Source of the DNA: Gemmatimonadota bacterium
Lineage (GTDB): Bacteria; Gemmatimonadota; Gemmatimonadetes; Longimicrobiales; Gaopeijiaceae
Assembly: GCA_007130605.1 (NCBI GenBank)
Contig: SLSF01000032.1
Span: 3,482 to 67,481 of the forward strand
DNA: 64,000 nucleotides
Direction: 5' to 3'
How positions within the stretch are numbered: the stretch's first letter is position 1; each line of letters opens with the position of its first letter. Made by a program: the position numbers and the translations under genes. Positions 167 through 41,033 of this stretch are shown in pieces. Below the pieces are notes generated by a model. It was given only the letters and a program-made list of their open reading frames with translations, was not told the origin of the DNA and made no database searches.

Positions 167-209
167 CGGTCTCCGGGAAGGAATCCCGGGCGCGCGCCCC
201 TCCACCCCC

Positions 210-425
210 CTACTCGACGCGGCGGCGGCGGCCGACGAGCCGGAATTCGATCTGACCGGAGGTGAGAGCCTCGAGGGCCCGGGTGGTGAGCTTCTTCTCG
301 TTCGCCAGGGGCTTGAGGTCGCGAGGGAGGGCATTCAGCTCCCGCGTGTACTTCGAGGCGACGAGCACACCCAGATACTTGCTCTGGGTGGAAGCGGCAA
401 CTTCCTTCGGCGTGAAAACGCGCAT
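210..425 (-). CDS. rpoZ: DNA-directed RNA polymerase subunit omega
   Basis: The 71-aa product contains [17 protein letters not shown] and [17 protein letters not shown], which resemble the RpoZ core (xRYxLVxxAxxRARQL ... KPVxIALxEIxxGKI). It sits directly downstream of gmk. Confidence 0.7.
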
Positions 426-526
426 CCTGGAATGTCTCCTTGGCGATCGAACCGGCGCACCGGACGGAGGCCCGCCCGACTGCTACATATGAACTCGATA
501 CTAAGCTAACGAATTCCGGGCCCCTG

Positions 527-2100: not shown

Positions 2101-2116
2101 GGCCTCTCCCATCCCC

Positions 2117-29400: not shown

Positions 29401-29626
29401 GATCACCCTCGATGTCCTGAACCTCGGCAATCTCGTGCGAAGAGGTTGGGGACGCGCGCCCTTCGTGCCTTCGGGCACCCTTCCACTCCTGGCGGTGGAA
29501 GATGGGGACGATGTGGTGGATGGCCAGCTCCTGCTTCAGCCCTTCACACTCACCGAGCCCCCATTCTCCACCAGGGCACTCACCTCGAGATTCCAGGTCG
29601 AGGTGGGGCTCCGCTACCGGTTCTGA
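26447..29626 (+). CDS. TonB-dependent receptor-like outer-membrane protein with a CarboxypepD_reg N-terminal domain
   Basis: Has a signal peptide (LGILPALLGGLLLAALTPAGPLWAQG) and a carboxypeptidase-regulatory fold (VTGQVTSAAGNPLQAVRIVVMDPDG...YRIEARGIGY). The long barrel ends in VGLRYRF. The start is uncertain: ATG 26447 or 26396, and both overlap the upstream gene. Confidence 0.7.
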   Translation: MPVPSGPKSTPSPSTDSGERGAAQFRRRHLGILPALLGGLLLAALTPAGPLWAQGITTAQVTGQVTSAAGNPLQAVRIVVMDPDGGMEVSALSRADGRYTLPGVDPGGPYRIEARGIGYRTEALESLYLLSGRVERIDFVLSRPEGVDEGPLHFGAGTGSTFSAGRNGLDATFGGADTSPLPSLTRDGIDPVRTLPQVGGFRPAVDDLRFGGGLPGILLLPGAREAPEGRRHRGVLPGTATPLLRSDLTTFDPRHGGSRGVRFDAGTARGTNEFRVTASRFGGIGPGGGRVTGSDLALAVGGPLVEDRAHFFVAAERSRRTDLLERRIRMPDSEATARAEDAADFLLERYDHSPASLDALRPDSEVDQLFARVDLRITPQHHLTLHHHRVSDGIEHFPQARGLAFLRGDAREWIRSDGQATVARLNSKFGGRFYNELRIGHARGEERRTAGGDFARIQVDLGGGALAHFGPTPTAGPGPMDRERVEISNDFLFSWGRHDLTVGAERTTLRSAPGPRIDAFGLWEFGSVEALRNESPERYVGTVRVGSGEAGSAFSIEGWALHAHNRWEATDELTLTLGARFDGSSLSGLPPVAGLPQRSDFDPYRRGAVEGVLHFNPRLSVHWGRADSGLTQFRGGVGLFTEPMPTGAIAGVRAGVGAESWRIVCTGSGVPTFTPDPSSAPGICADGLRVTPRTIHLVDPELGPPRFLRIAGGVDRELGVRELLGTVEFVWSGTRSDLLRRNLLVEPDPDGGMREGREVHRPVRISGGPGGLGVGEAIELTNTDEGHAWSLTAQLRRPVADGWGAHAAYTLSEASVVDPGARWSTRSFSALTPTAGDPNAPAAGRPGELARHRLVAGATFAFDLLDDSPLHLALLYIGESGGPYAFRYEGDVNGDGIRTNDLIRVPAGPDEVRFLDNADGDVPGRPSLSAEESWDRLDRFIDAVACLRDARGSILDPGACRAPSSHRIDVRARQEVGFGEVHRAEITLDVLNLGNLVRRGWGRAPFVPSGTLPLLAVEDGDDVVDGQLLLQPFTLTEPPFSTRALTSRFQVEVGLRYRF

Positions 29627-29631
29627 CGCGG

Positions 29632-32600
29632 TCAGTTCCCAGGCACGGCCACCGGGCTGGATCGGTTCTGTCGTGACCCGTCCCCGAGCTGGCCGTCCAC
29701 ATTGTAGCCCCAGCAGCGCATCTCTCCACCGGAGACTCGACCACAGGTGTGGGAGCCCACGGCGACGATGGACTGAAAGGTGTAACCCCCTTCCACGGGG
29801 GTGGGGGTGTTCCGGTCCTCGGTGGTCCCGTCGCCGAGCTGGCCATGGAGGTTCCGCCCCCAGCAGAAAGCGCGTCCACCCTCGGCGATGGCGCAGTTGT
29901 GGACGCCCCCGGCGGCGAGGGCAACGAAGGTCTCGTCCAAGGCCACCAGGGCCGGGGTGGATCGGCTGCTGCCGAACTCGCCCGTGCCGAGCCTCCCATC
30001 TTCATTGGCCCCCCAGCAATGAATGCGGCCATCGGTGGAGAGCCCGCAACTGTGGGCATTCCCTGCCGCCAGCGCCACGAAGCCGAGGCCTCCGATCACC
30101 CGCTGCGGGGTCGACGCCGAGGCGTTGGACCCGGTCCCCAGTCGTCCGGCGCCCCCGGTCCCCCAGCAGTATGCCTTCCCCTGGTCATCGAGGGCGCAGG
30201 TGTGGTCCCATCCCGCCACGATGGACGAGAAGCGGAAATCGCCGGCCACCGGAACCGGTTCGGAGCGGGCCGTCGTCGTCCCGTCGCCGAGCTGGCCGGC
30301 AGGATTCGCCCCCCAGCACCAGGCCTGGCCGGTGGCCGTGAGTCCGCAGCTGTGTCCGAGACCGGCGGTGATCTCGGTGAAGGTCACCTCGCCTCCGACC
30401 CTGCGGGGCTCCAGGAGGTCGGATCCGGCTCCACCCCCACTCTGACCGCGGTCATTGGACCCCCAGCACCACGCCTCGCCCGCGGGGGAAAGCGCGCAGA
30501 GGTGCGAGACACCGGAAGACACCCGGGCGAAGGGGCTCCCCACCACGGGAGCCGCCGGTGTGGTGGCGCGGTTCCGGGTGCCATCGCCGAGCTGACCATG
30601 AGCATTTCCGCCCCAGCACCGGAGGGTGCCACCGGAGCCAAGGGTACACGAATGACTCCCTCCCACGACGGTCCCGGCCCGAACCGGAAGACTCGCCGGC
30701 ACGGCATCGGCATCCAACGTCGTCAGAAGACCCGGTTCACCCACCACCTGAGCGGTCAACGACTGTCTGCCCACCGAGCTTCCCAGAGTCCATCGGGTGC
30801 GAGCGATCCCGTCGGAATCGGTGACGGCGGTCTCCGGATCCACCGCTCCGGCGCCCTCTTCCGGCTGGAAGCGCACGGAAACCCCCTCCAGCGCATCCCC
30901 TCCGGCGTCGAGGACCCGTACCTCCACTGGAGCCTCCACCACTTCGCCCACTCTTCCGGTGACGGGCTCCTCCTGCACGGCTTCGAGTCCGGTGGGAACG
31001 GCCTCGGTGAGGAATGCCTGGAACTGGACCTCGACTTCATCCCCTTCGAGACGCGCCACCAGTTGCTGATCGCCCTCGTCGCCGAGGGTCCAACGGACCA
31101 GGCTGCTTCCATCGGGTCGTGTGACATCGACAGGGGGATCGACAGCGCCCCCTCCCGACACCACCTCGAATTCGAGGGTGGTACCCGGGATGCCGGCACC
31201 CTCGGCATCGATGAGCTGGAGCACGAGGGGGGTCGGAAGCTCCCGGCCGGGAGCCCCGGCCTGGCCATCGCCCTGGAGAATCAGGAGCAGAGATTCCTCC
31301 CCCAGCAGTTCTCCCGCGTCTTCCACGCCTTCCAGGCCCAGTGTGTCCAGGAGCGTCCCCTCCTCCCCATCGGCGACGGTGGGAAGGGGCGCATCGGTAT
31401 CGATGGGCGTGGACTCGGGATCCAGGTCCTCACGGAGCCAGGGAGAATCGTCGAAGATCTCACCGTCGCTCCCGCTGAGGGGGTTCATCCGGTCCACGAA
31501 GGCGCCCGCCTCGCCTTCCGGACCGGCGAACCAGAAGCCCCCGATCACCAGGAGGAGGAGGGCCACCAGCGCTCCCACCCGGACGACCCACCGACTCGGC
31601 TCCCCTTCGGCCGCTCCCGCCGGCGGAGAGTGGGGTGGCAAGGCAGCCCGTGGATCCGGTCCGGGAGCACGCCTGCCACCGGGGATCCCGGCTCCCGGGG
31701 GAGGCACCGGGGGCTCTCCCGAAGGACGGGCTCCACCCGGGGGAGCGGAAACGTCGGGGGCGTCGGGGCTCCACGACGGCACCGGAAAGGGGACGGCCCC
31801 TCCCCGGGCGGGGGTCAAGCTCCGGTCCGAAGGAGGGTCCGCCTCGAGGGTTGAACCCTCGGCCAGCACCTCGAGGAAGGTGTCGGCCGAACGCCACCGG
31901 TCCTCCGGCGCCTTCTTCATGGCACCCTCGAGGGCGCGCCGGAGATTCTTCGGGATACCCGGTCGAAGGGTCTCCAGATCGGGAAGGTGCTCGTTCTTCT
32001 GCTTCCCGATGACCGAGTAGAGGCTCTCACCGGCCCACGGCTGCTTCCCCGAGAGCATCTCCCAGCCCAGGAGTCCGAGAGAGTAGATGTCACTTCGCCC
32101 ATCGAGGTCGCGGCCATCCACCTGCTCCGGCGACATGTAGGCCGGCGTGCCGATGGCGGTGCCCGGAAGGGTCAGACCCGAATCGCTGTCCCACGCCCGG
32201 GCGATCCCGAAGTCGGCGAGCCGCGCAATTCCCAGCGCCTCGTCCAGGTAGACATTCTCGGGCTTCAGGTCCCGGTGCACGATGCGGGAACGGTGCGCGT
32301 AGGAAAGCGCGCGGCCCAGGTCCCGGAGGATCCGCTCCGCTTCATCGAAGGGGAGAGGCCCCTCCTCGCGGATCCGGTCCTTCAGCGAGCGTCCCGGCAC
32401 GTACTGGAGGATCAGGGCCAGCCCTCCGTCGGCGAGCCGCCGGGTGCCCAGGAGCATCACGATGTTCGGGTGCTGGAGCTTTCCCACCGTTCTCGCCTCG
32501 CGCACCAGCCGGGCCACGGCATCCTCGTCCTGCACATAGCTCTGACGGATGAGCTTGATGGCCACGTCGCGCCCGAGTTCACGGTCCCGGGCCAGGTAGA

Positions 32601-32697
32601 CGACAGCGGTGCCTCCCCGCCCCAGCTCCCGAACGAGTTCGTACTCCCCGGCGAGTTCGGGGATCTCGGGGAGGTCGTCCGGGCGCCGCTGGCTCAT
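29632..32697 (-). CDS. Transmembrane Ser/Thr protein kinase with extracytoplasmic Ig-like domains and an RCC1-type beta-propeller
   Basis: Kinase motifs are present (GRGGTAVVY, VAIK, HRDLKPENV, DFGIA, SPEQ). A Pro-rich linker and a TM segment (VGALVALLLLVIGGFWF) follow. Outside the membrane are Ig-like repeats and about 7 RCC1 blades (CWGxNxxGQLGDG repeated). Confidence 0.9.
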   Translation of the reverse strand: MSQRRPDDLPEIPELAGEYELVRELGRGGTAVVYLARDRELGRDVAIKLIRQSYVQDEDAVARLVREARTVGKLQHPNIVMLLGTRRLADGGLALILQYVPGRSLKDRIREEGPLPFDEAERILRDLGRALSYAHRSRIVHRDLKPENVYLDEALGIARLADFGIARAWDSDSGLTLPGTAIGTPAYMSPEQVDGRDLDGRSDIYSLGLLGWEMLSGKQPWAGESLYSVIGKQKNEHLPDLETLRPGIPKNLRRALEGAMKKAPEDRWRSADTFLEVLAEGSTLEADPPSDRSLTPARGGAVPFPVPSWSPDAPDVSAPPGGARPSGEPPVPPPGAGIPGGRRAPGPDPRAALPPHSPPAGAAEGEPSRWVVRVGALVALLLLVIGGFWFAGPEGEAGAFVDRMNPLSGSDGEIFDDSPWLREDLDPESTPIDTDAPLPTVADGEEGTLLDTLGLEGVEDAGELLGEESLLLILQGDGQAGAPGRELPTPLVLQLIDAEGAGIPGTTLEFEVVSGGGAVDPPVDVTRPDGSSLVRWTLGDEGDQQLVARLEGDEVEVQFQAFLTEAVPTGLEAVQEEPVTGRVGEVVEAPVEVRVLDAGGDALEGVSVRFQPEEGAGAVDPETAVTDSDGIARTRWTLGSSVGRQSLTAQVVGEPGLLTTLDADAVPASLPVRAGTVVGGSHSCTLGSGGTLRCWGGNAHGQLGDGTRNRATTPAAPVVGSPFARVSSGVSHLCALSPAGEAWCWGSNDRGQSGGGAGSDLLEPRRVGGEVTFTEITAGLGHSCGLTATGQAWCWGANPAGQLGDGTTTARSEPVPVAGDFRFSSIVAGWDHTCALDDQGKAYCWGTGGAGRLGTGSNASASTPQRVIGGLGFVALAAGNAHSCGLSTDGRIHCWGANEDGRLGTGEFGSSRSTPALVALDETFVALAAGGVHNCAIAEGGRAFCWGRNLHGQLGDGTTEDRNTPTPVEGGYTFQSIVAVGSHTCGRVSGGEMRCWGYNVDGQLGDGSRQNRSSPVAVPGN

Positions 32698-34304
32698 GGA
32701 GCCGCACCCCCGGGACCGGAGGCATCGGCCACCGTGCTTCCGAAGGCCATGGCCGCCACGGCCACATTGTCCTCTCCTCCCCGGACCAGCGCCTCCTCCG
32801 AGAGGGCACGGGCCAGGTCACGGATGTCGGCAGTCCCGCGTACGACCTCGACGATGGCTTCGGAGGAGAGTACACCATGGATGCCATCGGTGCACAGGAG
32901 TACGAGGTGCCCCTCCGAAGAATCGAATCCCTGGAAGAGATCCACTTCAATCCCGGACTCGGCGCCCAGGTTTCGAGTCACGGCATTCCGCCAGGGGGAC
33001 CGCGCGGCCTCCTCGGCGCTCATCCGACCGTCGCGCGTCGCCTCGGCAATGAAGGAGTGATCCAGCGTGAGTTGCCGAATTCCTCCGTCATCGACCCGGT
33101 AGGCTCGACTGTCTCCCACATTGGCGATGTCGTAGCGATCCCCGTCGCGCAGGAGTGCCACGAGGGTGGTGCCCATCCCCTCCCGATCCGATTCCCTCTG
33201 CGCCTCTTCGAGCACTGCGCGGTGGGCCTCCTCTACCGCCGGACCGAGATCACTCCCATCGGAGAGGGCCCGCACCAGGGTCTCGAGCGCCAGGTGGCTC
33301 GCGATGCCCCCGGCGTGGTGGGAGCCCATGCCGTCACAGACGGCCGCCAGTTCGCGTCCTCCTGGAAGGGAACGGACGATGACCGCATCCTGATTCGTGG
33401 CGCGACGCCCCTGGTCGGTATACCAGGAACTCCGGAAGGGCAGCCGGTCCTGCGATGCCTCGTGGCGGAACCGGAATCCCAGGTCCCCCATCTCGATCCG
33501 GTCTCCATTGGCGAGCGGCACTTCCTCCACATCGGAGGAGAGGACTCGGCCGTTCACGGTGGTCGGATTCGTGCTCGACTCGTTTCGGAGGGTCCAGACC
33601 CCACCTCTGAAGGTCATTCGGGCCTGACGACGACTCACGGTGGGGGAGTCGAGGCGGACGTGCCGGTACTCCGGTCCCTCTTCCCGACCAAAGGAAATCT
33701 CCGCAGGCGCACCGGGAAGCCGGACGAAACGGATCTCGTCGCCACGGTCCGGCCCCACTTCGATCTCGAGGCGGCCGGGCAGCAGCTGGAGGGTGCCGTC
33801 GGGAGGGCGCTGATAGGTCACCGTACCGGTGTCACGGGAAGGGGTCGCTTCGTCACGATCCCCTGACGGGGCGTCCGGTCCGGCCGGCCCGGTGGGAATC
33901 GTCATGCGGCTCGTGGGGTCGGGTGCGGAGCCCTCCCGGGTCCCGGGTCCCGGATCCCTCCGCTCCGGCCCCGCCGAGGTGGCGGGCTCCCGGCCTCCAG
34001 GTGGCGTTGCGGGCCCGGGCGCGGCCCCCTCCGGCGGCCAGCCGGGGGCCACACTCGCACCGGGCCTGCGAGTCTCTCCGACCCCACCACCCCCGGCGAG
34101 GGGGAAGACGAGGAGTGGGCGGCCTTCGACGGATCTCCGCTGCGTGCGGCGCCGCCAGAGGATTCCCAGAACCACCGCGACGAGGAGCCCTCCCAGGATC
34201 GGGACCTCCCAGGCAGCCACCAGGCAGGCGGCGTTCTCGACGAAGCCGGTGGGCACCGCCGGACAGATCCCTTCCAGGATCCCCAGGCTCATCGCGTTGT
34301 CCAT
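32694..34304 (-). CDS. Membrane-anchored FHA-domain PP2C Ser/Thr phosphatase
   Basis: Has an N-terminal TM segment (ILGGLLVAVVLGILW), a Pro-rich linker and an FHA domain (ISFGREEG...VSRRQARMTFRGGVWTLRNESSTNPTTVNG). The PP2C domain carries TDQGRRATNQDA, CDGMGSHHAGGIAS and LLCTDGIHG. Its stop overlaps the kinase start (ATGA). Confidence 0.9.
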   Translation of the reverse strand: MDNAMSLGILEGICPAVPTGFVENAACLVAAWEVPILGGLLVAVVLGILWRRRTQRRSVEGRPLLVFPLAGGGGVGETRRPGASVAPGWPPEGAAPGPATPPGGREPATSAGPERRDPGPGTREGSAPDPTSRMTIPTGPAGPDAPSGDRDEATPSRDTGTVTYQRPPDGTLQLLPGRLEIEVGPDRGDEIRFVRLPGAPAEISFGREEGPEYRHVRLDSPTVSRRQARMTFRGGVWTLRNESSTNPTTVNGRVLSSDVEEVPLANGDRIEMGDLGFRFRHEASQDRLPFRSSWYTDQGRRATNQDAVIVRSLPGGRELAAVCDGMGSHHAGGIASHLALETLVRALSDGSDLGPAVEEAHRAVLEEAQRESDREGMGTTLVALLRDGDRYDIANVGDSRAYRVDDGGIRQLTLDHSFIAEATRDGRMSAEEAARSPWRNAVTRNLGAESGIEVDLFQGFDSSEGHLVLLCTDGIHGVLSSEAIVEVVRGTADIRDLARALSEEALVRGGEDNVAVAAMAFGSTVADASGPGGAAP

Positions 34305-34404
34305 GTTCGGTCCTTGCCTCCCGTCCGCTTCCCGGCTTGTGTCACGTCCCGTCTACGTACCCGGGTACCACCGGGTGAGGGTCCCCTTCCCATGCACAAT
34401 CGTG

Positions 34405-37400
34405 TCAAGCTGTACCTCCATCGGACTCATCTACCTCCACCTCCACCGTCCCGATCACCTCACCCTCATCGTCCTCGCCCAGGTAGGCCGTGATCTCCGC
34501 CACTCCCGGCTCGGTGGCCGTGAGGGTCGACTCGAAGGCACCGTCCTCCGTCGTGCCCCCTTCCGGCTCCAGCACCCCATGGGTCGTCTCGAGCCAGATC
34601 GGCTCTCCATCCAGGTCCAGGAGGTTGCCCGCCGCGTCCCTCAGTTCCACCCGGATCGTCGCGCTCTCGTCGGTGGTGATGGTCTCCGGGGTCGCCTCCA
34701 CCGTCGATTCATCGGCATCGGCCTCGCCTCCGGTCACGACCACCTGCACCGTCCCGATCACCTCGCCCTCATCGTCTTCGCCCAGGTAGGCCGTGATCAC
34801 TGCTGACCCCGTCTCACTGGCCGTAAAGGTGGATTCGAAGACCCCATCTTCCGTCGTGCCTCCCTGCGGATCCAACTCTCCACTCGCCATCTCGAGCCAG
34901 ATCGCCTCGCCCGTCAGGTCCAGTGCGTTCCCGGACGCGTCCCTGAGCTGCACCCGGATCGTCGCGCTCTCGTCGGTGGTGATCCTGTCCGGGGTCGCCT
35001 CCACTGTCGACCCGCCGGCATCCAGCTCGCCCACCGTCACCTCCACTTCCACCGTTCCGATCACATCGTCTTCATCGTCTTCGCCCAGGCGCGCCGTGAT
35101 CTCCGCTACCCCCGGCTCGCTGGCTGTGAAGGTCGATTCAAGCACCCCCTCTTCTGTCGTGTCCCTCTGCGGGTCCAGCTCTCCGTGCGTCGTCTCGAGC
35201 CAGATCGTGTCTCCGGTCAGGTTCAACGGATTGCCCGAGGCGTCCCGGAGTTCCACTCGGATCGTCGCACTCTCGTCCGTTGTGATGGTGTCCGGAGTGA
35301 CCTCCACCGTCGACTCGCCGGCATCGGGTGCGCCCGCCGTCACCTCTATCGTCACCGTCCCGATCACCTCACCCGTGTCATCTTCGCCCAGGTACGCCGT
35401 CACCTCGGCCGTCCCGGGCTCGCTCGCCGTCAGGACCGACTCGAAGGCGCCATCCTCCGTCGTCCCTCCCTGCGGGTCCAGCGCGCCATGGGTCGTCTCG
35501 AGCCAGATCTGCTCCCCGGTCGTATCCAGCGCATTGCCCGAGGCGTCCCGCAGCTCCACCCGCACCGTCGAACTCTCCCCGATGCTGATCGTCTCCGGCG
35601 CCGCCTCCACCGTCGACTCCCCGGCATCGGGTGCGCCCGCCGTCACCTCTATCGTCACCGTCCCGATCACCTCACCCGTGTCATCTTCGCCCAGGTACGC
35701 CGTCACCTCGGCCGTCCCGGGCTCGGTGGAAGTGAACACACTCCGGAGGGTGCCATCGCTCTCGGTCTCGCCGGCGGCGGGATCGAGTTCCCCAAGCGTC
35801 GTCGCAAGGAAGACCGCATCTCCGCCCGAGTCGATGGGATTCCCCGTTGGATCGAAGAGACGGACAGTGACCTCGGCTGAGCCGTCGATGCTGATGGAAG
35901 TCGGCTCCACCGTCACCTCGGAGGTCTCCGGATCGGGCGCGCCAGTGACAAAGGCCACGGTGGCCCCATCGCGGATGGTTTCCCCGTTCAGGGTTCCGGT
36001 AATCTCTGCCGTCTCCACATCGGTGCTGGAGGTCAGCGTGGCGATGAAGCGACCGTCTCCACCGGTGCTCACATCGGAGAGACTCCCCGCGGTGGTTTCC
36101 AACTCCACCTCGTGCGTGCCCGTCTCCGCCACATTCCCGAACCGGTCGAGGAGCTGAACCGTAACGGTTGAAGTGCTGGAGCCATCGGCGGTGATCCGGG
36201 TGGGAGAGGCCTGGATCGTTGTGGTTTCCACGGAGGGCGCTCCGGGCACGAAGGTCACCGACGTCGAATCGGCGAGGGGCTCGCCCCGAAGCGAGGCGGT
36301 GACCTCGGCGGTCCCGACCGAGGTGGGCGCGGTAAGAATTGCACGGTATTCCCCACCTCCCAGGTCCGAGACTGGGGAGAGGGTCCCGGCACTCGCCTGG
36401 ATCTCCACCTCGTCACCACCCGCGGGGATGCGCTCACCCCGGGCGTCTCTCAGGATCACCGTGATGACCGACTCCGACTCCCCGTCGGCAGTGATCTCGG
36501 CCGGCGCCACCTGGAGTTCCGACTGCCCGGGCACGGGCCGAGGACTCACCGACAGGACCAGGTCGATGGAGACGGGAGAGTTGATGGCGTCGGGTGATGA
36601 GAGCTCCCACCGGGCCAGATGGTTTCCGGGGAGGAGGCCCGGATCATCGAAAATGAAGCCCACCTCGGTGGGCGCATTGGAAGAGGCGAGGACCGCCTCG
36701 ACCCATCCCTCGCTTCCGCCGGAGGCCCACACGAGAGATCCGGTCAGATCGCCAAGGGTCCCTCCCCCCGCATTCTCCACCGCCACGGTCACCGACGAGG
36801 GCACACTCCCTCCCTCCTCCATGGACCGCTGGATCAATTCGGTGCCCACCACGATCTGCGGAGGGGTTTCCCCGAGGCGGAAACGGACGGCCACCACGGC
36901 GGAGGTCCCGGGCGCCGACGCGCTCGAAAGGTGAACCTCCGCCTCATGCACACCCACCTCGAGTCCATCGGAGTCGACCTGGAGCAGGAGGGTCGTCGGC
37001 GCCGAGTCGTCTTCGAGGTCCACCTGCAGCCACTCCACCTCGTTTCCAGCATCGTAGTGGATCTCGGCGGCCAGCCCGGTCAGGGTCCCGCCCCCCTCAT
37101 TGGTGACCTGGACGGTCTCGGGGGCCGGGGCCTCCTCCTCTTCGGACGCGGCGAAGCCCACCGCTTCCGGAGTCACAGCGAGTACCGGGGGCGAAGCATC
37201 CACCTCGAGGGTCACCTGGAGGGTGGCCGGCGCGTCCGGCAACTGGCTCGAGGCCACGGATACGGTGGCACCGTACGTCCCGGGCTGGAGATCCGTCGGA
37301 TCGGCCACCAGGGTCAGAACCGAGGGAACCGAGGTGGAGGAGAGGCTCCAGTCGAGCCAGTCCCCACCGCCTGGAGCATCGTACTCCACCTCCACCTCCA

Positions 37401-37860
37401 GGCCACCGATTTCCCCCCCGCCCTCATTCACGATCTCCACCTGGGCCAGGCCACTCCCGGAGGCACCACCGAAGTGAAGGTCGGAGGTGGACAGCCCCAG
37501 CGCCGGAGGAGAATCCACCACCACCGTGGCCACCCCACTCGCATTGCCGGTGGAGGCCCGAATCTCCGCGCTCCCGGGCCCCAGGGCCACTGCCATCCCA
37601 GTGGAATCGACGGACACGACTCCCGGTGCGTTGGAGCTCCATGCGATGTCCCGCCCTCCGAGAATCCCCCCCTCCGCATCGACGGGGGTCGCAGAAAAGT
37701 GGATCTCTTCGTCGGGGAGGAGACGGACGTCGTTCGGCTCCACCATCACCGATTCCACCTGGACGGTGACCACGGTCACATCTTCACAGCCCCCCAGGAA
37801 GAGGAGGAGACACGCCGCCAGGGCGGTGCGGAGACGGAGAGGGTGGAGAACGGGCATCAT
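34405..37860 (-). CDS. Giant surface lipoprotein: Big_2 domain, about 4 BACON-like modules and 8 Big_1-type Ig repeats
   Basis: Has a lipobox (LLLFLGGCEDVTV) and a Big_2 domain (VRLLPDEEIHFSATPVDAEGG...VVSVDSTGMAVALGPGSAEIRA). The modules carry NEGGGxLxGL...WL...L..G.Y. Eight tandem repeats of about 90-101 aa follow (TITTDESATIRVELRDASGNxLDLTGExIWLETTHGxLDP...). Confidence 0.85.
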   Translation of the reverse strand: MMPVLHPLRLRTALAACLLLFLGGCEDVTVVTVQVESVMVEPNDVRLLPDEEIHFSATPVDAEGGILGGRDIAWSSNAPGVVSVDSTGMAVALGPGSAEIRASTGNASGVATVVVDSPPALGLSTSDLHFGGASGSGLAQVEIVNEGGGEIGGLEVEVEYDAPGGGDWLDWSLSSTSVPSVLTLVADPTDLQPGTYGATVSVASSQLPDAPATLQVTLEVDASPPVLAVTPEAVGFAASEEEEAPAPETVQVTNEGGGTLTGLAAEIHYDAGNEVEWLQVDLEDDSAPTTLLLQVDSDGLEVGVHEAEVHLSSASAPGTSAVVAVRFRLGETPPQIVVGTELIQRSMEEGGSVPSSVTVAVENAGGGTLGDLTGSLVWASGGSEGWVEAVLASSNAPTEVGFIFDDPGLLPGNHLARWELSSPDAINSPVSIDLVLSVSPRPVPGQSELQVAPAEITADGESESVITVILRDARGERIPAGGDEVEIQASAGTLSPVSDLGGGEYRAILTAPTSVGTAEVTASLRGEPLADSTSVTFVPGAPSVETTTIQASPTRITADGSSTSTVTVQLLDRFGNVAETGTHEVELETTAGSLSDVSTGGDGRFIATLTSSTDVETAEITGTLNGETIRDGATVAFVTGAPDPETSEVTVEPTSISIDGSAEVTVRLFDPTGNPIDSGGDAVFLATTLGELDPAAGETESDGTLRSVFTSTEPGTAEVTAYLGEDDTGEVIGTVTIEVTAGAPDAGESTVEAAPETISIGESSTVRVELRDASGNALDTTGEQIWLETTHGALDPQGGTTEDGAFESVLTASEPGTAEVTAYLGEDDTGEVIGTVTIEVTAGAPDAGESTVEVTPDTITTDESATIRVELRDASGNPLNLTGDTIWLETTHGELDPQRDTTEEGVLESTFTASEPGVAEITARLGEDDEDDVIGTVEVEVTVGELDAGGSTVEATPDRITTDESATIRVQLRDASGNALDLTGEAIWLEMASGELDPQGGTTEDGVFESTFTASETGSAVITAYLGEDDEGEVIGTVQVVVTGGEADADESTVEATPETITTDESATIRVELRDAAGNLLDLDGEPIWLETTHGVLEPEGGTTEDGAFESTLTATEPGVAEITAYLGEDDEGEVIGTVEVEVDESDGGTA
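34420..36530 (-). repeat. In-frame tandem coding repeats (about 270-303 bp units) encoding Ig-like domains
   Basis: There are eight consecutive repeat units. The DNA at 35301-35422 and 35604-35725 is identical at 121 of 122 positions, with an offset of exactly 303 bp. Confidence 0.85.
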
Positions 37861-38948
37861 GGTCCCCCGCTCCCGGCTGGACCGGGATGACGGGGCGGAA
37901 TACCGTCCCGCACCGACGATCCCACATTAAAGGTCACGTCCACCTCTGCGTGGTCTGGAACCGCATCGGGGGCGGAGACTCGAACTCTGGCCCGGTAGAC
38001 CCCGGGAGAGAGATCGGTGGCGAATGCCTCGAGAAGTAAGTCGGTGGGCGCCGAACTCCCCTCCAGCGATGCTGTGAGCCACCCGGAGGGCGCGCCATCA
38101 AGGGGCTCGACCTCCACCGAAAGACCGGAGAGCGCTCCTCCTCCGGCATTCGTCACCCGCACGCCCTGGGAGGCCGGCTCCCGGGAACCGGCGTTCGCGG
38201 CCAGTGAGACACTTCCCGGTGACAGAGCGATCCGGGGTGGGGGTTCGCGAACTTCGAAGGTGACCGAGAGCGTGACCGGACTGTTGTCCGCCACCGACGA
38301 ACGGAGCTCGATCCCGCGGGAGTAGACGCCCACTTCCAGTTCGGACGGGTCCGCCCGGAGCCGGAGCTGGCTGGGAGCGACGAGTGCGGAGAGCTCCACC
38401 TCGAGCCACTCCGGCTCGCTGGGATCCTCCCCGGACCCCACCACCGCATCGAGGCCCGAGAGCGTCCCACCCCCGGCGTTCCAGATGGCCACCGAGACTT
38501 CGGCCACCCCACCAGACCCGGCTTCGGCACTAAAGGTGAAGTTCATGCTGTCCAATGCGATGGACGGACTTTCCTCCACCACCACTTCAACCGCACCTTC
38601 CACCCCCTCGCTCCTCGCGCGCACCAGGGTCTCCCCGGGTCCGACCCCCCGGATCATTCCCGGGGAAGTCACCTCGACGATGGCCGGAGCGTCGGAAATC
38701 CACTCCACTTCGCGCCCTCCCAGAAGTTCGCCTCCGGCACCCCGCAGCTCGAGGGAAAGCTCCAGCTCCTCTCCGGTCACGATCTGGGCGGAGGAGGGCA
38801 TGACGGTGATCGTCTGCACCGGAAGAATTTCCACCGTGATGTCCTCGCAACCACCGAGGAGAGGAAGGAGGAAGAGCGCGAGCCATCCCCGGGAAGACCG
38901 CCTCGCCGGGGGCCGTTTCGACCGCTCCGCCCGTCCTCTCGTCTTCAT
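37857..38948 (-). CDS. Surface lipoprotein: Big_2 domain plus 3 BACON-like modules (short paralogue of the giant protein's N-terminus)
   Basis: The start at 38948 (MKTRGRAERSK...) gives the lipobox LLPLLGGCEDITV. The Big_2 domain reads ITVMPSSAQIVTGEELELSLELRGAGGE...IVEVTSPGMIRGVGPGETLVRA. The modules carry WNAGGGTLSGL / VTNAGGGALSGL. It overlaps both neighbours. Confidence 0.75.
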   Translation of the reverse strand: MKTRGRAERSKRPPARRSSRGWLALFLLPLLGGCEDITVEILPVQTITVMPSSAQIVTGEELELSLELRGAGGELLGGREVEWISDAPAIVEVTSPGMIRGVGPGETLVRARSEGVEGAVEVVVEESPSIALDSMNFTFSAEAGSGGVAEVSVAIWNAGGGTLSGLDAVVGSGEDPSEPEWLEVELSALVAPSQLRLRADPSELEVGVYSRGIELRSSVADNSPVTLSVTFEVREPPPRIALSPGSVSLAANAGSREPASQGVRVTNAGGGALSGLSVEVEPLDGAPSGWLTASLEGSSAPTDLLLEAFATDLSPGVYRARVRVSAPDAVPDHAEVDVTFNVGSSVRDGIPPRHPGPAGSGGP

Positions 38949-40132
38949 CAGAAACGGACCCTCAGCCCCGCCCGGATCCGTTGGAGCCGCCCCGGTGGCG
39001 GTGTCGAGAGCTCGAGTGCCGCAGCCCCGGACCCCAGACCCACCACGTCCAGGCCCACCAGTACTCCTCTGGAGTCGGGGGTGAGGGCAATGCTCCCCTC
39101 GCCACTTCGACCCGCCCGCCGGAATGCGTGGATAGCCCCCACCAGCGTCACCGCACCCGCCACGGCGAGTCCCGGCACCAGGAGGGCTCGCTCCACTTCT
39201 CTGGAAGCGACCTCGCCGGCGGGACAGGAGCCATCCACCGCCGGTACCCGACATCGCTCCGTCACTTCGGTGTAGAGGACGCCTGTCGCCGCCGCGGCTC
39301 CTGCCCCGGCGAGCACCAGGAGGCCCGCCCGGTTCGAGCCCAGGTAGAAGTGCCCCATTCCCGGGAAGACCATTCCAGTGAGAAGCGCGGTACCGGCGCT
39401 TCGGGTCGGCGCCTGGGGTGCGAGCCGCTCCAGCCGGACCTCGACGAGGGCCCGGTCCGAGGCATCGGGAAGGAGCTCCAGGTACCGTTCGAGGTCGGAC
39501 TCCGCGGCGCCCGTCCGACCGTCGCCCAGGTAGGCGAGCCCCCGGTTGTAGTGGGCTTCGGGCCAGTTGGGAAGCTCCACGAGGGCCCGGGAGAAGTGGA
39601 GTACGGCCTCCTCGTAGCTCGATCCTTCGAGCGCCGTCACCCCCTGCTGGAAGGCGACTCTCGCGACCGCTGGAATCTCGTCCTCCTCGGGCCCGGCCAG
39701 CGCCTCCACCCGAGCATCGACCTCTTCGGCGTCGGACCCCTCGGGGGCCAGGAGGAGGTAGCGACAGTACTCCCGGATCGCAGCGGGCACCTCGTCGGCG
39801 CCCTCGAGCAGGCGCCCGAGCCGGTAGGCGATCTCCGGATCCTCCGGGTCGAGTTCGGCGGCCTCCCGGAGGAGTTCCAGCGCTGATCCGTCATCGCCCA
39901 GGATCGCGGCCTGGTTCGCCTCGGAGAGGAGGCCACGGGCCCGCTCCCGATCTGCATCTGAGATCTCCTCTTCGAAAAAGGCGAGGAGCGCTTCCGCCTC
40001 ACACGGCCCGGGGGCCGGAGGGGGAAGCTCGACCTTGGGAGGAAGCTCCTGCGCATGCACCTCGCCTCCGGCCCCCCGAACCATGGGGACGACGAGCAGC
40101 AGTGCGAATCCGACGAACATGGTGCGTCTCAC
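38948..40132 (-). CDS. Secreted TPR-repeat protein with C-terminal hydrophobic segments
   Basis: I prefer the GTG start at 40132 (VRRTMFVGFALLLVVPMVRGAGG), which is preceded by GGGAGGAG. TPR-like repeats are present (ALELLREAAELDPEDPEIAYRLGRLL..., EAVLHFSRALVELPNWPEAHYNRGLAYL). The C-terminal part has 2-3 TM-like stretches, and the protein ends LRVRF. Confidence 0.65.
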   Translation of the reverse strand: MRRTMFVGFALLLVVPMVRGAGGEVHAQELPPKVELPPPAPGPCEAEALLAFFEEEISDADRERARGLLSEANQAAILGDDGSALELLREAAELDPEDPEIAYRLGRLLEGADEVPAAIREYCRYLLLAPEGSDAEEVDARVEALAGPEEDEIPAVARVAFQQGVTALEGSSYEEAVLHFSRALVELPNWPEAHYNRGLAYLGDGRTGAAESDLERYLELLPDASDRALVEVRLERLAPQAPTRSAGTALLTGMVFPGMGHFYLGSNRAGLLVLAGAGAAAATGVLYTEVTERCRVPAVDGSCPAGEVASREVERALLVPGLAVAGAVTLVGAIHAFRRAGRSGEGSIALTPDSRGVLVGLDVVGLGSGAAALELSTPPPGRLQRIRAGLRVRF

Positions 40133-40339
40133 CTGGCCTCTTCTCCTCCCTGCGAGTCTACGGTGTCCGGGGGCTCCACAGATGCCGATGAAGATGGGGC
40201 GGGACAGATCGGCTCGGATCACTCGTCCGGAGCCTCAATCCTAACTACGCTGCAATGGGCCTGCCAGACACCCGGATCGATGCGCGACGGCCTCCCTCCT
40301 TGACGGCCGCAGCCCCACCGTCACAAGCTCTCTCGAAGA

Positions 40340-40915
40340 TTGGCGAAGCAGGATCCTCTCACTCCTTCCAGGGAAGCTCCCATGAAGAAACGACCGACCC
40401 ATCGGTACTCTGGCGCCTTCGGCATTCCGACCCCGAGGTGCACCTTCCCCCTCTCCCCGCTCCTCCTCGTCCTCTTCGCCGGATGCCAGGTGGAGATCCC
40501 CGAAGCCGAGACGGATGTCCTGCCGCAGCCGGAGTTCGAGGAAATCGCCACCGCGGCCGCACCCGAAGCCATCGGTCCCTACTCTCAGGCCATTCGGACC
40601 GACCATGCCCTCTACCTCTCGGGACAGATCGGCCTCGACCCCGAGACGGGCGAAATGGTCGAGGGCGGAATCGAGGCGGAAACGCATCAGGTGATGGAGA
40701 ACCTCGGCGCCGTCCTGGAAGCCGCGGGAATGGACTTCGGCCATGTGGTCCAGGCCCAGGTCTTCCTGGCGGACCTCGACGACTTCTCGGTGATGAACGA
40801 GATCTATGCCGGGTACCTGGAGGCTCCCCATCCGGCGCGGGCCACCATCGAGGCCGCCCGGCTCCCCCGGGATGCCCGGGTCGAGATCGTCATGACGGCG
40901 GTGGAACGCCCCTGA
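40340..40915 (+). CDS. ridA: RidA/YjgF/L-PSP family protein with an N-terminal lipoprotein signal
   Basis: The core is AIGPYSQAIRTDHALYLSGQIGLDPETGEMV...VVQAQVFLADLDDFSVMNEIYAGY...PARATIEAARLPRDARVEI. A signal with a lipobox precedes it (LLLVLFAGCQ). Confidence 0.85.
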   Translation: MAKQDPLTPSREAPMKKRPTHRYSGAFGIPTPRCTFPLSPLLLVLFAGCQVEIPEAETDVLPQPEFEEIATAAAPEAIGPYSQAIRTDHALYLSGQIGLDPETGEMVEGGIEAETHQVMENLGAVLEAAGMDFGHVVQAQVFLADLDDFSVMNEIYAGYLEAPHPARATIEAARLPRDARVEIVMTAVERP

Positions 40916-41033
40916 CCGGGTGGCACGTCGGACCCCGACATCGTAGCTTGAATGATTCTCGACAATTCGATTCGCTTCCCCCCTTCGACCCGCCGCGTGG
41001 GCCGGAGGAAGGGGCGTCCATGGAGGACTCCTG

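What the first reader, a model, noticed from the sequence alone, without database searches (positions are those of the whole stretch)
29632..40132. Five-gene, translationally coupled cassette linking giant Ig-repeat surface lipoproteins to a transmembrane FHA-PP2C phosphatase and an RCC1-propeller Ser/Thr kinase
On the minus strand the order is: TPR/TM protein, Big_2 lipoprotein, 1151-aa Big_2/BACON-like/Big_1 lipoprotein, membrane FHA-PP2C, then STK with extracytoplasmic Ig domains and a 7-blade RCC1 propeller. The junctions overlap by 1 nt (TGATG), overlap by 4 nt (ATGA), are separated by a 100-nt gap, and overlap by 4 nt (ATGA). That argues for a single operon. STK/PP2C/FHA trios are well known, for example in actinobacterial cell-wall control and T6SS post-translational regulation. 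Here, though, both enzymes are membrane-anchored with long Pro-rich linkers, and the kinase sensor is a beta-propeller fused to the same Ig-like module type found in the neighbouring adhesin-like proteins and in the metzincin at 16599. The partners are cell-surface repeat proteins, not secretion or division genes. This architecture suggests an envelope sensing module in which surface-protein or ligand state is read by the propeller and written as pThr that the FHA domain recognises. I do not recognise this as a described system.
Basis: partly seen in the sequence, partly recalled or inferred. Interest (0 to 1): 0.65.

Follow-up and report, generated by a model that had tools for sequence, protein, structure and literature searches.

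The report
Conserved Gemmatimonadota envelope kinase–phosphatase gene cluster
Five co-oriented genes pair a membrane receptor kinase and a membrane-tethered phosphatase with three envelope proteins, and the same gene set recurs, in shuffled order, in other members of this little-studied bacterial phylum, so it looks like one undescribed signalling unit built from familiar parts.

Summary
Five minus-strand genes at 29632-40132 are joined by TGATG, ATGA, a 100-nt gap and ATGA. They encode a TPR membrane protein (G1), two Ig-repeat lipoproteins (G2, G3), a membrane-anchored FHA-PP2C phosphatase (G4) and a Hanks kinase with Big_1 plus a 7-blade RCC1 ectodomain (G5).

In about 16 independent loci named as Gemmatimonadota where named (Gemmatimonadales and Longimicrobiales), the gene content recurs with different flanks and different gene orders. 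Examples are TPR>Big>Big>FHA-PP2C>STK, FHA>PP2C>STK>TPR>Big and FHA>FHA>STK>Big>TPR. One variant keeps everything except the kinase domain, FHA and PP2C.

My best reading is a receptor-kinase module. G4 has the architecture of plant KAPP (anchor + FHA + PP2C) and would dock on the kinase's phosphothreonines and reset it. G1, G2 and G3 would be its extracytoplasmic partners. That mechanism is inferred, not shown.

Three details need correction. The "BACON-like" repeats are unassigned PapD/ASH-like Ig folds. Surface exposure is unproven. PP2C is not universal in the cluster, whereas FHA accompanies the kinase in every cluster that has a kinase.

This is a new variant of a known kind (STK/PP2C/FHA with envelope accessory proteins). 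Interest is moderate.

The parts
38948..40132 (-). G1: TPR membrane protein (394 aa from GTG 40132; ATG at 40120). It has a signal peptide, a periplasmic TPR domain with two invariant Cys (C44, C123), a PGMGHFY-type motif, at least two TM helices and a C-terminal ...RVRF tail.
   Evidence: Pfam TPR_9/TPR_11/TPR_2. Family alignments give the invariant residues. AF2 model has pLDDT 86, with TPR helices at 46-237, TM helices at 267-286 and 318-341, and a beta hairpin between them. Hydrophobic segments. Fold search returns only generic TPR proteins. The family is large: 2262 representatives at E<=1e-30.
37857..38948 (-). G2: 363-aa lipoprotein with a signal peptide, lipobox LLGGC followed by ED, one Big_2 domain and two ~109-aa Ig-like repeats. 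Its start ATG shares one base with the G1 stop (TGATG).
   Evidence: The lipobox is conserved in homologues from 10 loci. The repeat model has pLDDT 96 and is an Ig-like sandwich.
34405..37860 (-). G3: 1151-aa lipoprotein. Its N-terminal half is paralogous to G2 (Big_2 plus three of the same Ig-like repeats). The C-terminal half holds seven Invasin_D3/Big_1 domains. It is very acidic (18% D+E, 3% K+R). ATGA overlap with G2.
   Evidence: Pfam Invasin_D3 2.5e-101 with 7 stretches, Big_1 8.2e-52, Big_2. phmmer G2 vs G3 gives 1e-71. Composition.
34433..35736 (-). Tandem DNA repeat inside G3: 303-nt period, 4.3 copies, 79% matches. It encodes the last Big_1/Invasin_D3 domains.
   Evidence: Tandem Repeats Finder. 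It shows up as the strongly negative GC skew and AT skew of the 34001-36000 bin.
34305..34404 (-). 100-nt G3-G4 spacer. No terminator-like or sigma-70-like consensus. A GGGAGG Shine-Dalgarno-like motif precedes the G4 ATG.
32694..34304 (-). G4: 536-aa membrane-anchored FHA-PP2C phosphatase. A ~27-aa extracytoplasmic N-terminus carries two conserved Cys (C14, C27). Then come a TM at 28-46 followed by RRRTQRR, a ~110-aa Pro-rich linker, the FHA domain (204-273) and the PP2C domain (~296-520).
   Evidence: Pfam FHA 4e-14, PP2C_2 4e-17. The PP2C is closest to bacterial PstP/Stp1/PppA structures. FHA motifs GR, SRRQA and NG, and PP2C motifs RxxNQD, DGMG, GDSR, DG and DN are all present. TM. The N-terminal module is conserved in L001, L002, L006 and L087.
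29632..32697 (-). G5: 1021-aa receptor-type Hanks Ser/Thr kinase. Cytoplasmic kinase (19-269), Pro-rich linker, TM 374-392, acidic linker, Big_1-type Ig region (~470-655) and a 7-blade RCC1 propeller (677-1021) with two Cys per blade. ATGA overlap with G4.
   Evidence: Pfam. Catalytic motifs G-loop, VAIK, HRDLKPEN, DFG and SPE are present. The activation loop is conserved across homologues. PDB sequence matches are UVR8/HERC2/RCC1 and the ACR4 receptor-kinase ectodomain 7a0j. More than 6900 homologues have the same architecture.
40133..40303 (.). Divergent intergenic region between G1 and the plus-strand RidA gene (40304-40915). It is the only non-coding stretch available for a cassette promoter.
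   Evidence: Gene map. No sigma-70 consensus was found there. Its role as a promoter is inference only.

Best explanation
This is a conserved Gemmatimonadota envelope-signalling cluster made of two coupled sub-modules.

Sub-module B (G5 + G4) is a receptor kinase and its tethered reset enzyme.
- G5 is an inner-membrane Hanks kinase. Its periplasmic Big_1 + RCC1 propeller is the sensor.
- Activation leads to threonine autophosphorylation on the conserved activation loop (GLTLPGTAIGTP) and/or the juxtamembrane linker.
- G4 sits in the same membrane on a single TM helix. Its FHA domain docks on those phosphothreonines and its PP2C domain removes them. This is the logic of plant KAPP acting on receptor-like kinases.
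- In sister lineages the FHA protein is a separate membrane-anchored gene and PP2C can be absent. The FHA reader, not the phosphatase, is therefore the kinase's obligatory partner.

Sub-module A (G1 + G2 + G3) is the extracytoplasmic partner set. It comprises a TPR membrane protein and one or more Ig-repeat lipoproteins, all facing the same compartment as the propeller. I infer that they form the complex or ligand-presenting scaffold whose state the propeller monitors.

Shown: gene structure, domain content, intact catalytic and pThr-binding motifs, membrane topology signals, and conserved co-occurrence with shuffled order.

Inferred: every protein-protein contact, the direction of information flow, the signal, and the downstream output.
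For: Anatomy and coupling.

Co-occurrence, by seed type:
- Kinase-seeded loci. Six of 7 have FHA(-PP2C) immediately upstream, 6 of 7 have Big-repeat proteins and 4 of 7 have a G1 homologue. The loci are L001, L002, L003, L005, L098 and L099, against the orphan L004.
- FHA-junction-seeded metagenome contigs. On all four contigs that extend past the FHA-PP2C gene, a kinase follows it. Four of 5 have a Big protein upstream. L088 shows the complete G1>G2>G3>G4>G5 order.
- Stand-alone-FHA-seeded loci in three MAG assemblies, one of them Gemmatimonadaceae, plus one JGI metagenome contig. All show FHA>FHA>STK-RCC1>giant G2-like protein>G1-like protein, often with 4-nt overlaps.
- G1-seeded loci. All three have an adjacent G2-like gene. 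L091 has G1>Big>Big>(2 TM + Big_1 + RCC1) with no kinase, FHA or PP2C. That ties the propeller ectodomain to sub-module A independently of the kinase.

Flanks differ between loci, and the named sources span two classes, Gemmatimonadia and Longimicrobiia.

The stand-alone FHA proteins are also TM-anchored.

Precedents: a bacterial FHA-PP2C shown to dock on and dephosphorylate kinases, with the KAPP analogy drawn by its authors (bioRxiv 10.64898/2026.01.23.701218). A plant receptor kinase with an RCC1-like propeller ectodomain (PDB 7a0j; bioRxiv 10.1101/2020.08.10.245050).
Against: - There is no direct evidence of any interaction, phosphorylation or co-transcription.
- One kinase, L004, sits alone in the same downstream genomic context as the full cassette of L098. 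The kinase can therefore exist without adjacent partners.
- PP2C is missing from the L094-L097 clusters, so the 'reset' step is not universal.
- L092 and L093 show G1+G2-like pairs with no kinase in the sequence available. Both lie at contig ends.
It is not a census.
- The kinase family has thousands of members against roughly 2000 G1-family representatives. Many kinases may therefore be unpaired.
- Where the lipoproteins sit (inner membrane, periplasmic face of the outer membrane, or cell surface) is unknown.
Confidence: 0.5

Rival explanations
1. Output rather than input. The kinase senses something else with its propeller, such as a glycan, a peptide or envelope damage. It then controls the assembly, export or anchoring of the Ig-repeat lipoproteins. 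It would do this by phosphorylating cytoplasmic segments of the TPR membrane protein G1, or the FHA protein, which then acts on G1.
For: The co-occurrence data are the same as for the main model. G1 has TM helices and non-periplasmic segments that a cytoplasmic kinase could reach. TM-anchored FHA proteins without PP2C are the universal kinase partner. That fits an adaptor or effector role like FhaB/FipA or T6SS Fha1 (my own knowledge; NCBIfam weak hit to FhaB_Rv0019c).
Against: The kinase-less L091 variant keeps the Big_1+RCC1 ectodomain next to G1 and the Big proteins. That argues for contact on the periplasmic side rather than purely cytoplasmic control. G1's loop and tail are poorly conserved outside close relatives, and the tail is modelled at low confidence.
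Confidence: 0.2
2. Two independent units that are merely neighbours: an adhesin or Ig-lipoprotein operon with its TPR helper (G1-G3), and an ordinary kinase/phosphatase pair (G4-G5). They would be kept together by shared ancestry rather than shared function.
For: The 100-nt gap falls exactly between the two sub-modules. The G1+G2-like pairs in L092 and L093 have no kinase in the sequence available. L004 has a kinase alone. L001, the closest relative, shares the flanks too, so on its own it shows only inheritance.
Against: The two sub-modules stay together when the order is inverted or interleaved: STK>TPR>Big in L003, and FHA>FHA>STK>Big>TPR in L094-L097. There are 4-nt overlaps across sub-module borders (STK/TPR in L003). 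This holds with unrelated flanks and in two classes of the phylum. In L091 the RCC1 ectodomain stays with sub-module A after losing the kinase.
Confidence: 0.2
3. A member of an already described STK/PP2C/FHA system: either the T6SS threonine-phosphorylation pathway (PpkA/PppA/Fha1/TagQRST) or the actinobacterial cell-wall/division cluster (PknA/B, PstP, FhaA/B, RodA, PbpA).
For: It has the same three signalling domain types. The PP2C is closest in sequence to PstP, Stp1 and PppA. There are weak NCBIfam hits to TagH-type FHA and FhaB. Envelope accessory proteins upstream of the kinase resemble TagQ/TagR (PMC7817224).
Against: No T6SS, RodA/PbpA or PASTA domains were found in the cassette or in the flanking genes examined, nor in any related locus table. 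The kinase ectodomain is RCC1+Big_1, not vWA or PASTA. All equivalog models score far below their cut-offs.
Confidence: 0.05

Closest known systems
Plant KAPP (kinase-associated protein phosphatase) acting on receptor-like kinases
   Same: G4 has the same three-part layout: an N-terminal membrane anchor, an FHA (kinase-interaction) domain and a C-terminal PP2C catalytic domain. It is encoded next to, and translationally coupled with, a single-pass receptor-type Ser/Thr kinase. KAPP architecture and role are taken from bioRxiv 10.64898/2026.01.23.701218 and from my own knowledge.
   Different: This is convergent layout, not orthology. G4's PP2C is closest in sequence to bacterial PstP/Stp1/PppA. 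The kinase has the bacterial orientation, with the kinase N-terminal and the sensor C-terminal. In sister lineages FHA and PP2C are separate genes, or PP2C is absent. No interaction was tested.
Deinococcus radiodurans DRA0331-DRA0334 operon (vWA protein, TM kinase, FHA protein, KI-FHA-PP2C phosphatase)
   Same: It is a bacterial operon that combines a membrane Hanks kinase with an FHA-PP2C fusion phosphatase and an extracytoplasmic-type accessory protein. The FHA domain gives kinase docking and specificity.
   Different: As described there, DRA0334 has an unstructured N-terminal region rather than the TM anchor seen in G4. The accessory protein is vWA rather than TPR/Ig lipoproteins. The kinase has no RCC1 or Ig ectodomain. 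The biology there is DNA-damage signalling.
Pseudomonas aeruginosa T6SS threonine-phosphorylation pathway (TagQRST-PpkA-Fha1-PppA)
   Same: Envelope accessory proteins (the outer-membrane protein TagQ with periplasmic TagR) act upstream of a transmembrane Hanks kinase. That kinase's signal is read by an FHA protein and erased by a PP2C, and the pathway detects envelope perturbation (PMC7817224).
   Different: No T6SS genes appear here or in any related locus. The accessory proteins are unrelated (TPR-TM and Ig-repeat lipoproteins against TagQ/R/S/T). The kinase sensor domain differs. FHA is membrane-anchored and fused to PP2C.
Arabidopsis CRINKLY4 (ACR4) receptor kinase
   Same: It is a receptor Ser/Thr kinase whose ectodomain is a seven-bladed RCC1-like/WD40 propeller. 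G5's propeller matches the ACR4 ectodomain chain 7a0j at E 2.6e-12. Architecture comes from bioRxiv 10.1101/2020.08.10.245050.
   Different: ACR4 has a cysteine-rich domain after the propeller and a C-terminal kinase. G5 has Big_1 Ig domains before the propeller and an N-terminal kinase. UVR8, HERC2 and RCC1 are much closer in sequence (E 1e-47 to 1e-33), so this is an analogy of design and not a specific relationship.
Mycobacterial PknA/PknB-PstP-FhaA-FhaB(FipA) cluster
   Same: It has Hanks kinases with extracytoplasmic sensor domains, a membrane PP2C and small membrane-anchored FHA proteins in one conserved cluster. The TM-FHA proteins of L003 and L094-L097 resemble FhaB in layout (weak NCBIfam hit; cluster description from my own knowledge).
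   Different: No PASTA domains and no RodA/PbpA neighbours. PstP has no FHA domain. The partners here are Ig-repeat lipoproteins and a TPR membrane protein.

Membership tests
Hanks-type (eukaryotic-like) Ser/Thr protein kinase | Pkinase fold with a Gly-rich loop, VAIK lysine, HRDxKxxN catalytic loop, DFG and an APE/SPE motif | tested here: met
   Pfam Pkinase 3.8e-48. GRGGTAVV at 26, VAIK at 45, HRDLKPEN at 141, DFG at 162 and SPE at 189.
PPM/PP2C phosphatase | PP2C fold with the metal-binding Asp motifs (RxxNED-like, DGxGG/H, GDSR, DG, DN) | tested here: met
   Pfam PP2C_2 4.1e-17 and PP2C 8.2e-13. PstP and Stp1 structures match at E 1e-30. RATNQD, DGMG, GDSR, DGIH and DNV are present and invariant in 4 homologues.
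FHA domain (phosphothreonine reader) | FHA fold with the conserved Gly-Arg, Ser-x-x-His and Asn-Gly residues that bind pThr | tested here: met
   Pfam FHA 4e-14. G206-R207, S224-R225 and N251-G252 are invariant. The structural His is Gln in this copy (SRRQA) but His in the homologues. Binding itself was not tested.
Plant KAPP family | Membrane anchor + KI-FHA + PP2C in one polypeptide | tested here: met
   TM at 28-46, FHA at 204-273, PP2C at ~296-520.
Plant KAPP family | Common descent with plant KAPP, and phosphorylation-dependent binding to receptor kinases | tested here: inconclusive
   The nearest solved PP2C sequences are bacterial (PstP, Stp1, PppA), which points to convergence. No plant sequences were compared directly, and binding cannot be tested with these tools.
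T6SS threonine-phosphorylation pathway (PpkA/PppA/Fha1/TagQRST) | Location in or next to a T6SS gene cluster; PpkA with a periplasmic vWA-type domain | tested here: not met
   No T6SS families appear among the cassette or its flanks, nor in the neighbour tables of related loci. The ectodomain is Big_1+RCC1. The TagH model scores 27 bits against a cut-off of 120.
Actinobacterial PknB/PstP/FhaA/FhaB cell-wall cluster | PASTA repeats on the kinase; adjacent rodA/pbpA | tested here: not met
   The PknB_PASTA_kin model matches only the kinase domain (266 bits against a cut-off of 450). There are no PASTA, FtsW/RodA or transpeptidase hits in the neighbours.
RCC1-like seven-bladed beta-propeller | Seven RCC1 repeats forming one propeller | tested here: met
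   Pfam RCC1 and RCC1_2 with 7 stretches each, WD40_RLD 2.7e-92. UVR8, HERC2 and RCC1 structures match at E 1e-47 to 1e-33. The fold itself was not modelled here.
BACON domain (claimed for the G2/G3 middle repeats) | Significant match to the Pfam BACON or BACON_2 models | tested here: not met
   The best match is BACON_2 at E=0.13, 12.6 bits against a cut-off of 25. The AF2 model (pLDDT 96) is an Ig-like sandwich. Its top fold matches are a ciliary central-pair protein, the Ig linker of a sialidase, and FimC/PapD-like chaperones, with TM 0.6-0.69.
Bacterial lipoprotein | Signal peptide ending in a lipobox [LVI][ASTVI][GAS]C | tested here: met
   G2 has ...LLPLLGGC-ED and G3 has ...LLLFLGGC-ED. 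An equivalent L-x-[GAS]-C followed by D or E occurs in homologues from 10 loci. Lipidation and final location cannot be tested here.

The most novel reading that the evidence does not exclude
Gemmatimonadota may possess a phylum-wide, multi-component envelope receptor. An inner-membrane TPR protein and long Ig-repeat lipoproteins would form a periplasm-spanning or surface-reaching scaffold. The state of that scaffold (ligand binding, stretching, cleavage or envelope spacing) would be read directly by the RCC1 propeller of a receptor kinase. A membrane-tethered FHA(-PP2C) partner would then decode and reset the signal. That would be an independently evolved bacterial counterpart of the plant receptor-kinase / co-receptor / KAPP arrangement. 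Kinase-less versions such as L091 would show that the extracytoplasmic complex came first.
Probability: 0.3. Interest if true: 0.7.

Novelty: new variant of a known kind. Interest (0 to 1): 0.55.

Why it matters
Bacterial Hanks kinases are numerous, but for most of them neither the signal nor the partner proteins are known.

Here comparative genomics delivers a defined and recurrent partner set for one very large kinase family. More than 6900 homologues share the Pkinase + RCC1 architecture (most also carry Big_1), in a phylum that is abundant in soils and sediments but almost unstudied genetically.

That turns 'what does the RCC1 ectodomain bind?' into a short list of candidates: a TPR membrane protein and Ig-repeat lipoproteins encoded in the same operon.

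It also offers a natural experiment on FHA-PP2C fusion. The fused, split and PP2C-less versions can be compared to ask how phosphatases are targeted to receptor kinases. This parallels plant KAPP.

If the extracytoplasmic complex is real, it would be a new type of envelope-sensing device.

Tried and rejected
1. Genome-contig scan with the whole FHA-PP2C alignment.

2. Metagenome-contig scan with an FHA-to-PP2C junction alignment. It was specific but gave only 5 short contigs.

3. Profile search with the 145-aa FHA junction. It listed only proteins of 254 aa or fewer, so it showed the abundant stand-alone FHA relatives but not the fused ones. The number of fused FHA-PP2C genes could not be counted.

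4. NCBIfam and PADLOC. These gave only generic kinase, PP2C and TPR matches far below cut-offs. A defence-system reading was rejected. The PADLOC hits are kinase-domain-only, and the cluster sits among housekeeping genes.

5. A BNR/sortilin propeller next to the G1-like gene in L092 looked like a swapped propeller partner. It has no signal peptide and appears cytoplasmic, so I dropped it.

6. Fold search of the G1 model returned only generic TPR proteins. G1's C-terminal strands are low-confidence.

7. Rfam found nothing in the window. The promoter and terminator scans were no better than shuffles.

8. Plus-strand ORFs that overlap the cassette (for example 29749-31854 and 34793-36157) were rejected as high-GC artefacts. 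The codon-position GC pattern favours the minus-strand frames, and only those have homologues.

Full report
OBSERVATION

On the minus strand the ORFs are:
- G1, 38948-40132 (394 aa from a GTG; an ATG lies four codons in).
- G2, 37857-38948 (363 aa).
- G3, 34405-37860 (1151 aa).
- G4, 32694-34304 (536 aa).
- G5, 29632-32697 (1021 aa).

Reading the junctions directly gives TTC-TGATG-AAG for G1/G2, CC-ATGA-TG for G2/G3, a 100-nt spacer for G3/G4 and CC-ATGA-GC for G4/G5. All five frames show the codon-position GC pattern of real genes in this 68% GC genome, with GC3 of 0.75-0.81. The overlapping plus-strand ORFs do not, and they have no homologues.

The block is a discrete unit. A convergent CarboxypepD_reg/OMP-barrel gene ends 6 nt from the G5 stop. 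A divergent RidA gene starts 171 nt upstream of G1. The spacer holds no terminator-like hairpin and has a GGGAGG motif ahead of the G4 start. Rfam finds nothing in the window.

ANATOMY

G5 is a complete Hanks kinase (Pfam Pkinase 3.8e-48; G-loop, VAIK, HRDLKPEN, DFG and SPE all present). It is followed by:
- an 88-residue linker that is 28% proline;
- one TM helix (374-392);
- an acidic stretch (29% D+E);
- a Big_1-type Ig region;
- a seven-repeat RCC1 propeller with two cysteines per blade.

Pfam calls one Big_1 domain at 589-651. The preceding ~95 residues have the same sequence pattern, but that is my reading and not a tool result.

G4 starts with about 27 extracytoplasmic residues carrying two conserved cysteines. 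Then come one TM helix (28-46) followed by RRRTQRR, a 111-residue linker (21% Pro, 16% Ser+Thr), an FHA domain and a PP2C domain. The pThr-binding residues (GR, SR, NG) and all the metal-binding PP2C motifs are intact. By the positive-inside rule the FHA-PP2C part is cytoplasmic.

G2 and G3 both begin with a signal peptide and the lipobox LGGC followed by ED. Each then has one Big_2 domain and two (G2) or three (G3) copies of a ~109-residue repeat that Pfam does not recognise (BACON_2 E=0.13). An AlphaFold model of this repeat, built from the five window copies, reaches pLDDT 96. It is an eight-strand Ig-like sandwich. Its best structural matches are a ciliary central-pair protein, the Ig linker of a bacterial sialidase, and FimC/PapD-type chaperones, with TM 0.6-0.69. 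'BACON-like' should therefore be replaced by 'unassigned PapD/ASH-like Ig repeat'.

G3 continues with seven Invasin_D3/Big_1 domains. The last four are encoded by a 303-nt tandem repeat at 79% identity. The protein is very acidic (18% D+E, 3% K+R).

G1 has a signal peptide and a TPR domain with two invariant cysteines. It then has a PGMGHFY-type motif, two confidently modelled TM helices separated by a beta hairpin, and a poorly modelled C-terminal tail that ends in RVRF in most close homologues.

All five proteins are thus predicted to be membrane-attached. G1, G2, G3 and the G5 sensor face the extracytoplasmic side. The G5 kinase and G4 FHA-PP2C face the cytoplasm.

IS IT A UNIT? COMPARATIVE EVIDENCE

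The kinase has more than 6900 homologues with the same Pkinase + RCC1 architecture, most with Big_1. Every one that carries a taxon name in the listed hits is from Gemmatimonadota.

I looked up seven kinases, chosen only because they lie on long contigs:
- L001 (57% identity): the whole cassette plus an extra G3 paralogue, but also the same flanks.
- L098: G1>G2>G3-like>283-aa protein>FHA-PP2C>STK, with unrelated flanks.
- L099: a compact G1>Big>FHA-PP2C>STK with abutting or overlapping genes.
- L005: six Big-type genes, then FHA-PP2C>STK.
- L002: a 1115-aa Invasin_D3 protein, then FHA-PP2C>STK.
- L003: FHA>PP2C as separate genes, then STK>G1 (4-nt overlap)>G2-like.
- L004: the kinase alone.

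Five metagenome contigs found with an FHA-to-PP2C junction profile all carry the FHA-PP2C. On the four contigs that extend past it, the kinase follows directly. Four of the five have a Big protein upstream, and L088 has the complete five-gene order.

Stand-alone FHA relatives are abundant (957 hits at E<=1e-10). Look-ups of two of them returned three MAG assemblies (GCA_016713015.1, GCA_016704625.1 and the Gemmatimonadaceae GCA_046327725.1) plus one JGI metagenome contig. All show FHA>FHA>STK-RCC1>a 1300-1700-aa G2-like protein>G1-like protein, several with 4-nt overlaps and with no PP2C. These FHA proteins are themselves TM-anchored.

Starting from distant G1 homologues, all three loci have a G2-like gene next to G1. 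In L091 the order is G1>1404-aa G2-like>699-aa G2-like>a 934-aa protein. That last protein has two TM helices, two Big_1 domains and an RCC1 propeller, but no kinase, and the locus has no FHA or PP2C.

The gene content therefore persists through inversions of order, fusion and fission of FHA and PP2C, changes of flanks, and across two classes of the phylum (Longimicrobiia in L006, Gemmatimonadia in L097). That is the classical signature of functional coupling.

The G1 family is itself large. A profile search finds 2262 representatives (50%-identity clusters) at E<=1e-30, and the top 150 are nearly all of similar length (276-584 aa, one of 880 aa) and matched over most of the profile.

Caveats:
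- About 16 loci is a sample, not a census.
- Most are MAG or metagenome assemblies, and some have frameshifts.
- L004 shows a kinase at the same downstream genomic position as L098 but without partners.
- L092 and L093 end at contig edges.

HOW IT PROBABLY WORKS

I commit to a two-sub-module model at about 0.5 confidence.

Sub-module B is a receptor kinase with a tethered reader and eraser. The G5 kinase domain and activation loop (DSDSGLTLPGTAIGTPAYMSPEQ) are the most conserved parts of the protein, while the linkers are not conserved. Autophosphorylation on loop or linker threonines would create the docking site for the G4 FHA domain. Because G4 is confined to the same membrane, its PP2C domain would then dephosphorylate the kinase, or a co-recruited substrate.

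This is the mechanism established for plant KAPP on receptor-like kinases. It has recently been reported for a bacterial KI-FHA-PP2C in a Deinococcus kinase operon. Because FHA accompanies the kinase in every kinase-bearing cluster and PP2C does not, the FHA protein is probably the primary reader and adaptor. The fusion seen in this window would be a lineage-specific way of building in the reset.

Sub-module A (G1 + G2/G3) is the extracytoplasmic partner set. The strongest argument is L091, where the Big_1+RCC1 ectodomain stays with G1 and the Ig lipoproteins after the cytoplasmic signalling parts are gone.

Several things cannot be decided here:
- whether the propeller binds the lipoproteins, the TPR domain, or a ligand they present;
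- whether information flows inward (sensing) or outward (control of lipoprotein assembly);
- where the lipoproteins reside. The conserved acidic residue after the lipid-modified Cys would mean inner-membrane retention by the E. coli rule. That rule is not known to apply in this phylum (my own knowledge).

COMPARISON WITH KNOWN SYSTEMS

The parts are standard Hanks kinase, PPM phosphatase, FHA, TPR, Big_1/Big_2 and RCC1 domains, and each passes its membership test.

As a system it is not a member of the T6SS threonine-phosphorylation pathway or of the actinobacterial PknB/PstP/FhaA/FhaB cluster. The defining context genes and sensor domains are absent, and the curated equivalog models score far below their cut-offs.

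It does work like both in outline. In particular it resembles TagQRST-PpkA-Fha1-PppA, where the outer-membrane protein TagQ with periplasmic TagR, and the TagTS inner-membrane complex, feed a TM kinase that detects envelope perturbation.

G4 has the KAPP layout, but its PP2C is of the bacterial PstP/Stp1 type, so this is convergence. The RCC1-propeller receptor kinase has a design parallel in plant CRINKLY4. It is closer in sequence to UVR8, HERC2 and RCC1.

Full-text searches found no paper on RCC1-ectodomain kinases or on FHA/PP2C/kinase clusters in Gemmatimonadota. That library lacks many subscription-journal papers.

VERDICT

The 'dedicated cassette' idea is supported by comparative genomics, and the proposed mechanism is plausible but untested.

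It is a new variant of a known kind of system (STK/PP2C/FHA signalling with envelope accessory proteins), not a categorically new one. Its value is that it supplies concrete candidate partners for a very large, uncharacterised receptor-kinase family, together with naturally occurring fused, split and PP2C-less variants. Interest 0.55.

Noticed in passing
L091:17654-20458 (GCA_041390125.1): A kinase-less relative of G5. It has an N-terminal signal/TM segment, a DPDADGDG thrombospondin-type-3-like motif, a second TM, a ~190-aa Pro/Arg-rich cytoplasmic loop, a third TM, and then two Big_1 domains and the RCC1 propeller. It sits directly after a G1 homologue and two giant G2-like proteins, with no FHA or PP2C nearby.
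   Followed up: partly
L004:10001-12904 compared with L098:10001-13015: An 'orphan' RCC1 kinase (L004) shares its whole downstream flank with the full cassette of L098: A24 prepilin peptidase, SpoU methylase, PfkB, PNP_UDP, Hsp70, HtrA-like protease and trigger factor. Upstream it has unrelated genes. This suggests loss or relocation of the partner genes at an orthologous site.
   Followed up: partly
window 16413-19313 (+): A 966-aa secreted metzincin-like protein (Reprolysin_5, weak) with three Big_1 domains. Those domains are closer to the kinase's Ig region (phmmer 7e-18) than G3's repeats are. It may share a ligand or partner with the kinase ectodomain, or may simply reflect domain shuffling.
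   Followed up: partly
window 40956-43340 (+); L094-L096 ~170-3130 (-): A large M14 carboxypeptidase-family protein lies within a few kb of the cassette in the window (divergent, after RidA). One also lies ~7 kb upstream of the FHA>FHA>STK>Big>TPR cluster in three distant loci, there accompanied by an M10 peptidase and a Big_2 protein. This is possibly a further loosely linked component. It was not tested.
   Followed up: no
window 34304-34224 (G4 aa 1-27), also L005 and L006: The short extracytoplasmic N-terminus of the FHA-PP2C carries two conserved cysteines (G..L....CP..P.G..E...C) ahead of the TM helix. This suggests a small disulfide-bonded periplasmic peg that could contact the other envelope proteins. 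The stand-alone FHA proteins of L094 and L003 lack it.
   Followed up: partly
window 34433-35736 (-): The 303-nt tandem repeat (4.3 copies, 79% identity) inside G3 encodes near-identical Big_1/Invasin_D3 domains. Homologues differ widely in repeat number, at 351 to ~1700 aa. This points to rapid length variation of the Ig-repeat proteins.
   Followed up: partly
N-termini of G2/G3-like proteins in 10 loci (window, L001, L003, L005, L088, L091, L094, L097, L098, L099): The residue after the lipobox Cys is almost always Asp or Glu (C-E-D, C-D-S, C-E-E and so on). In E. coli an Asp at +2 keeps lipoproteins in the inner membrane. Whether this applies in Gemmatimonadota is unknown.
   Followed up: no
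window 26396-29626 (+); L001:13139-16306: A ~1070-aa CarboxypepD_reg + OMP beta-barrel (TonB-dependent-receptor-like) gene converges on the kinase gene, with only 5 nt between the two stop codons in the window. It is conserved only in the closest relative (L001), so it is probably not part of the system.
   Followed up: partly
L002 and L006 (Longimicrobiales, ~3.58-Mb contigs): These are two near-identical long-read assemblies of the same locus. They disagree in frame across the G1-like gene, the Ig-repeat gene, the N-terminus of the FHA-PP2C and the kinase: split ORFs in one, fused in the other. These are probably homopolymer or collapse errors in repeats and not biology.
   Followed up: no
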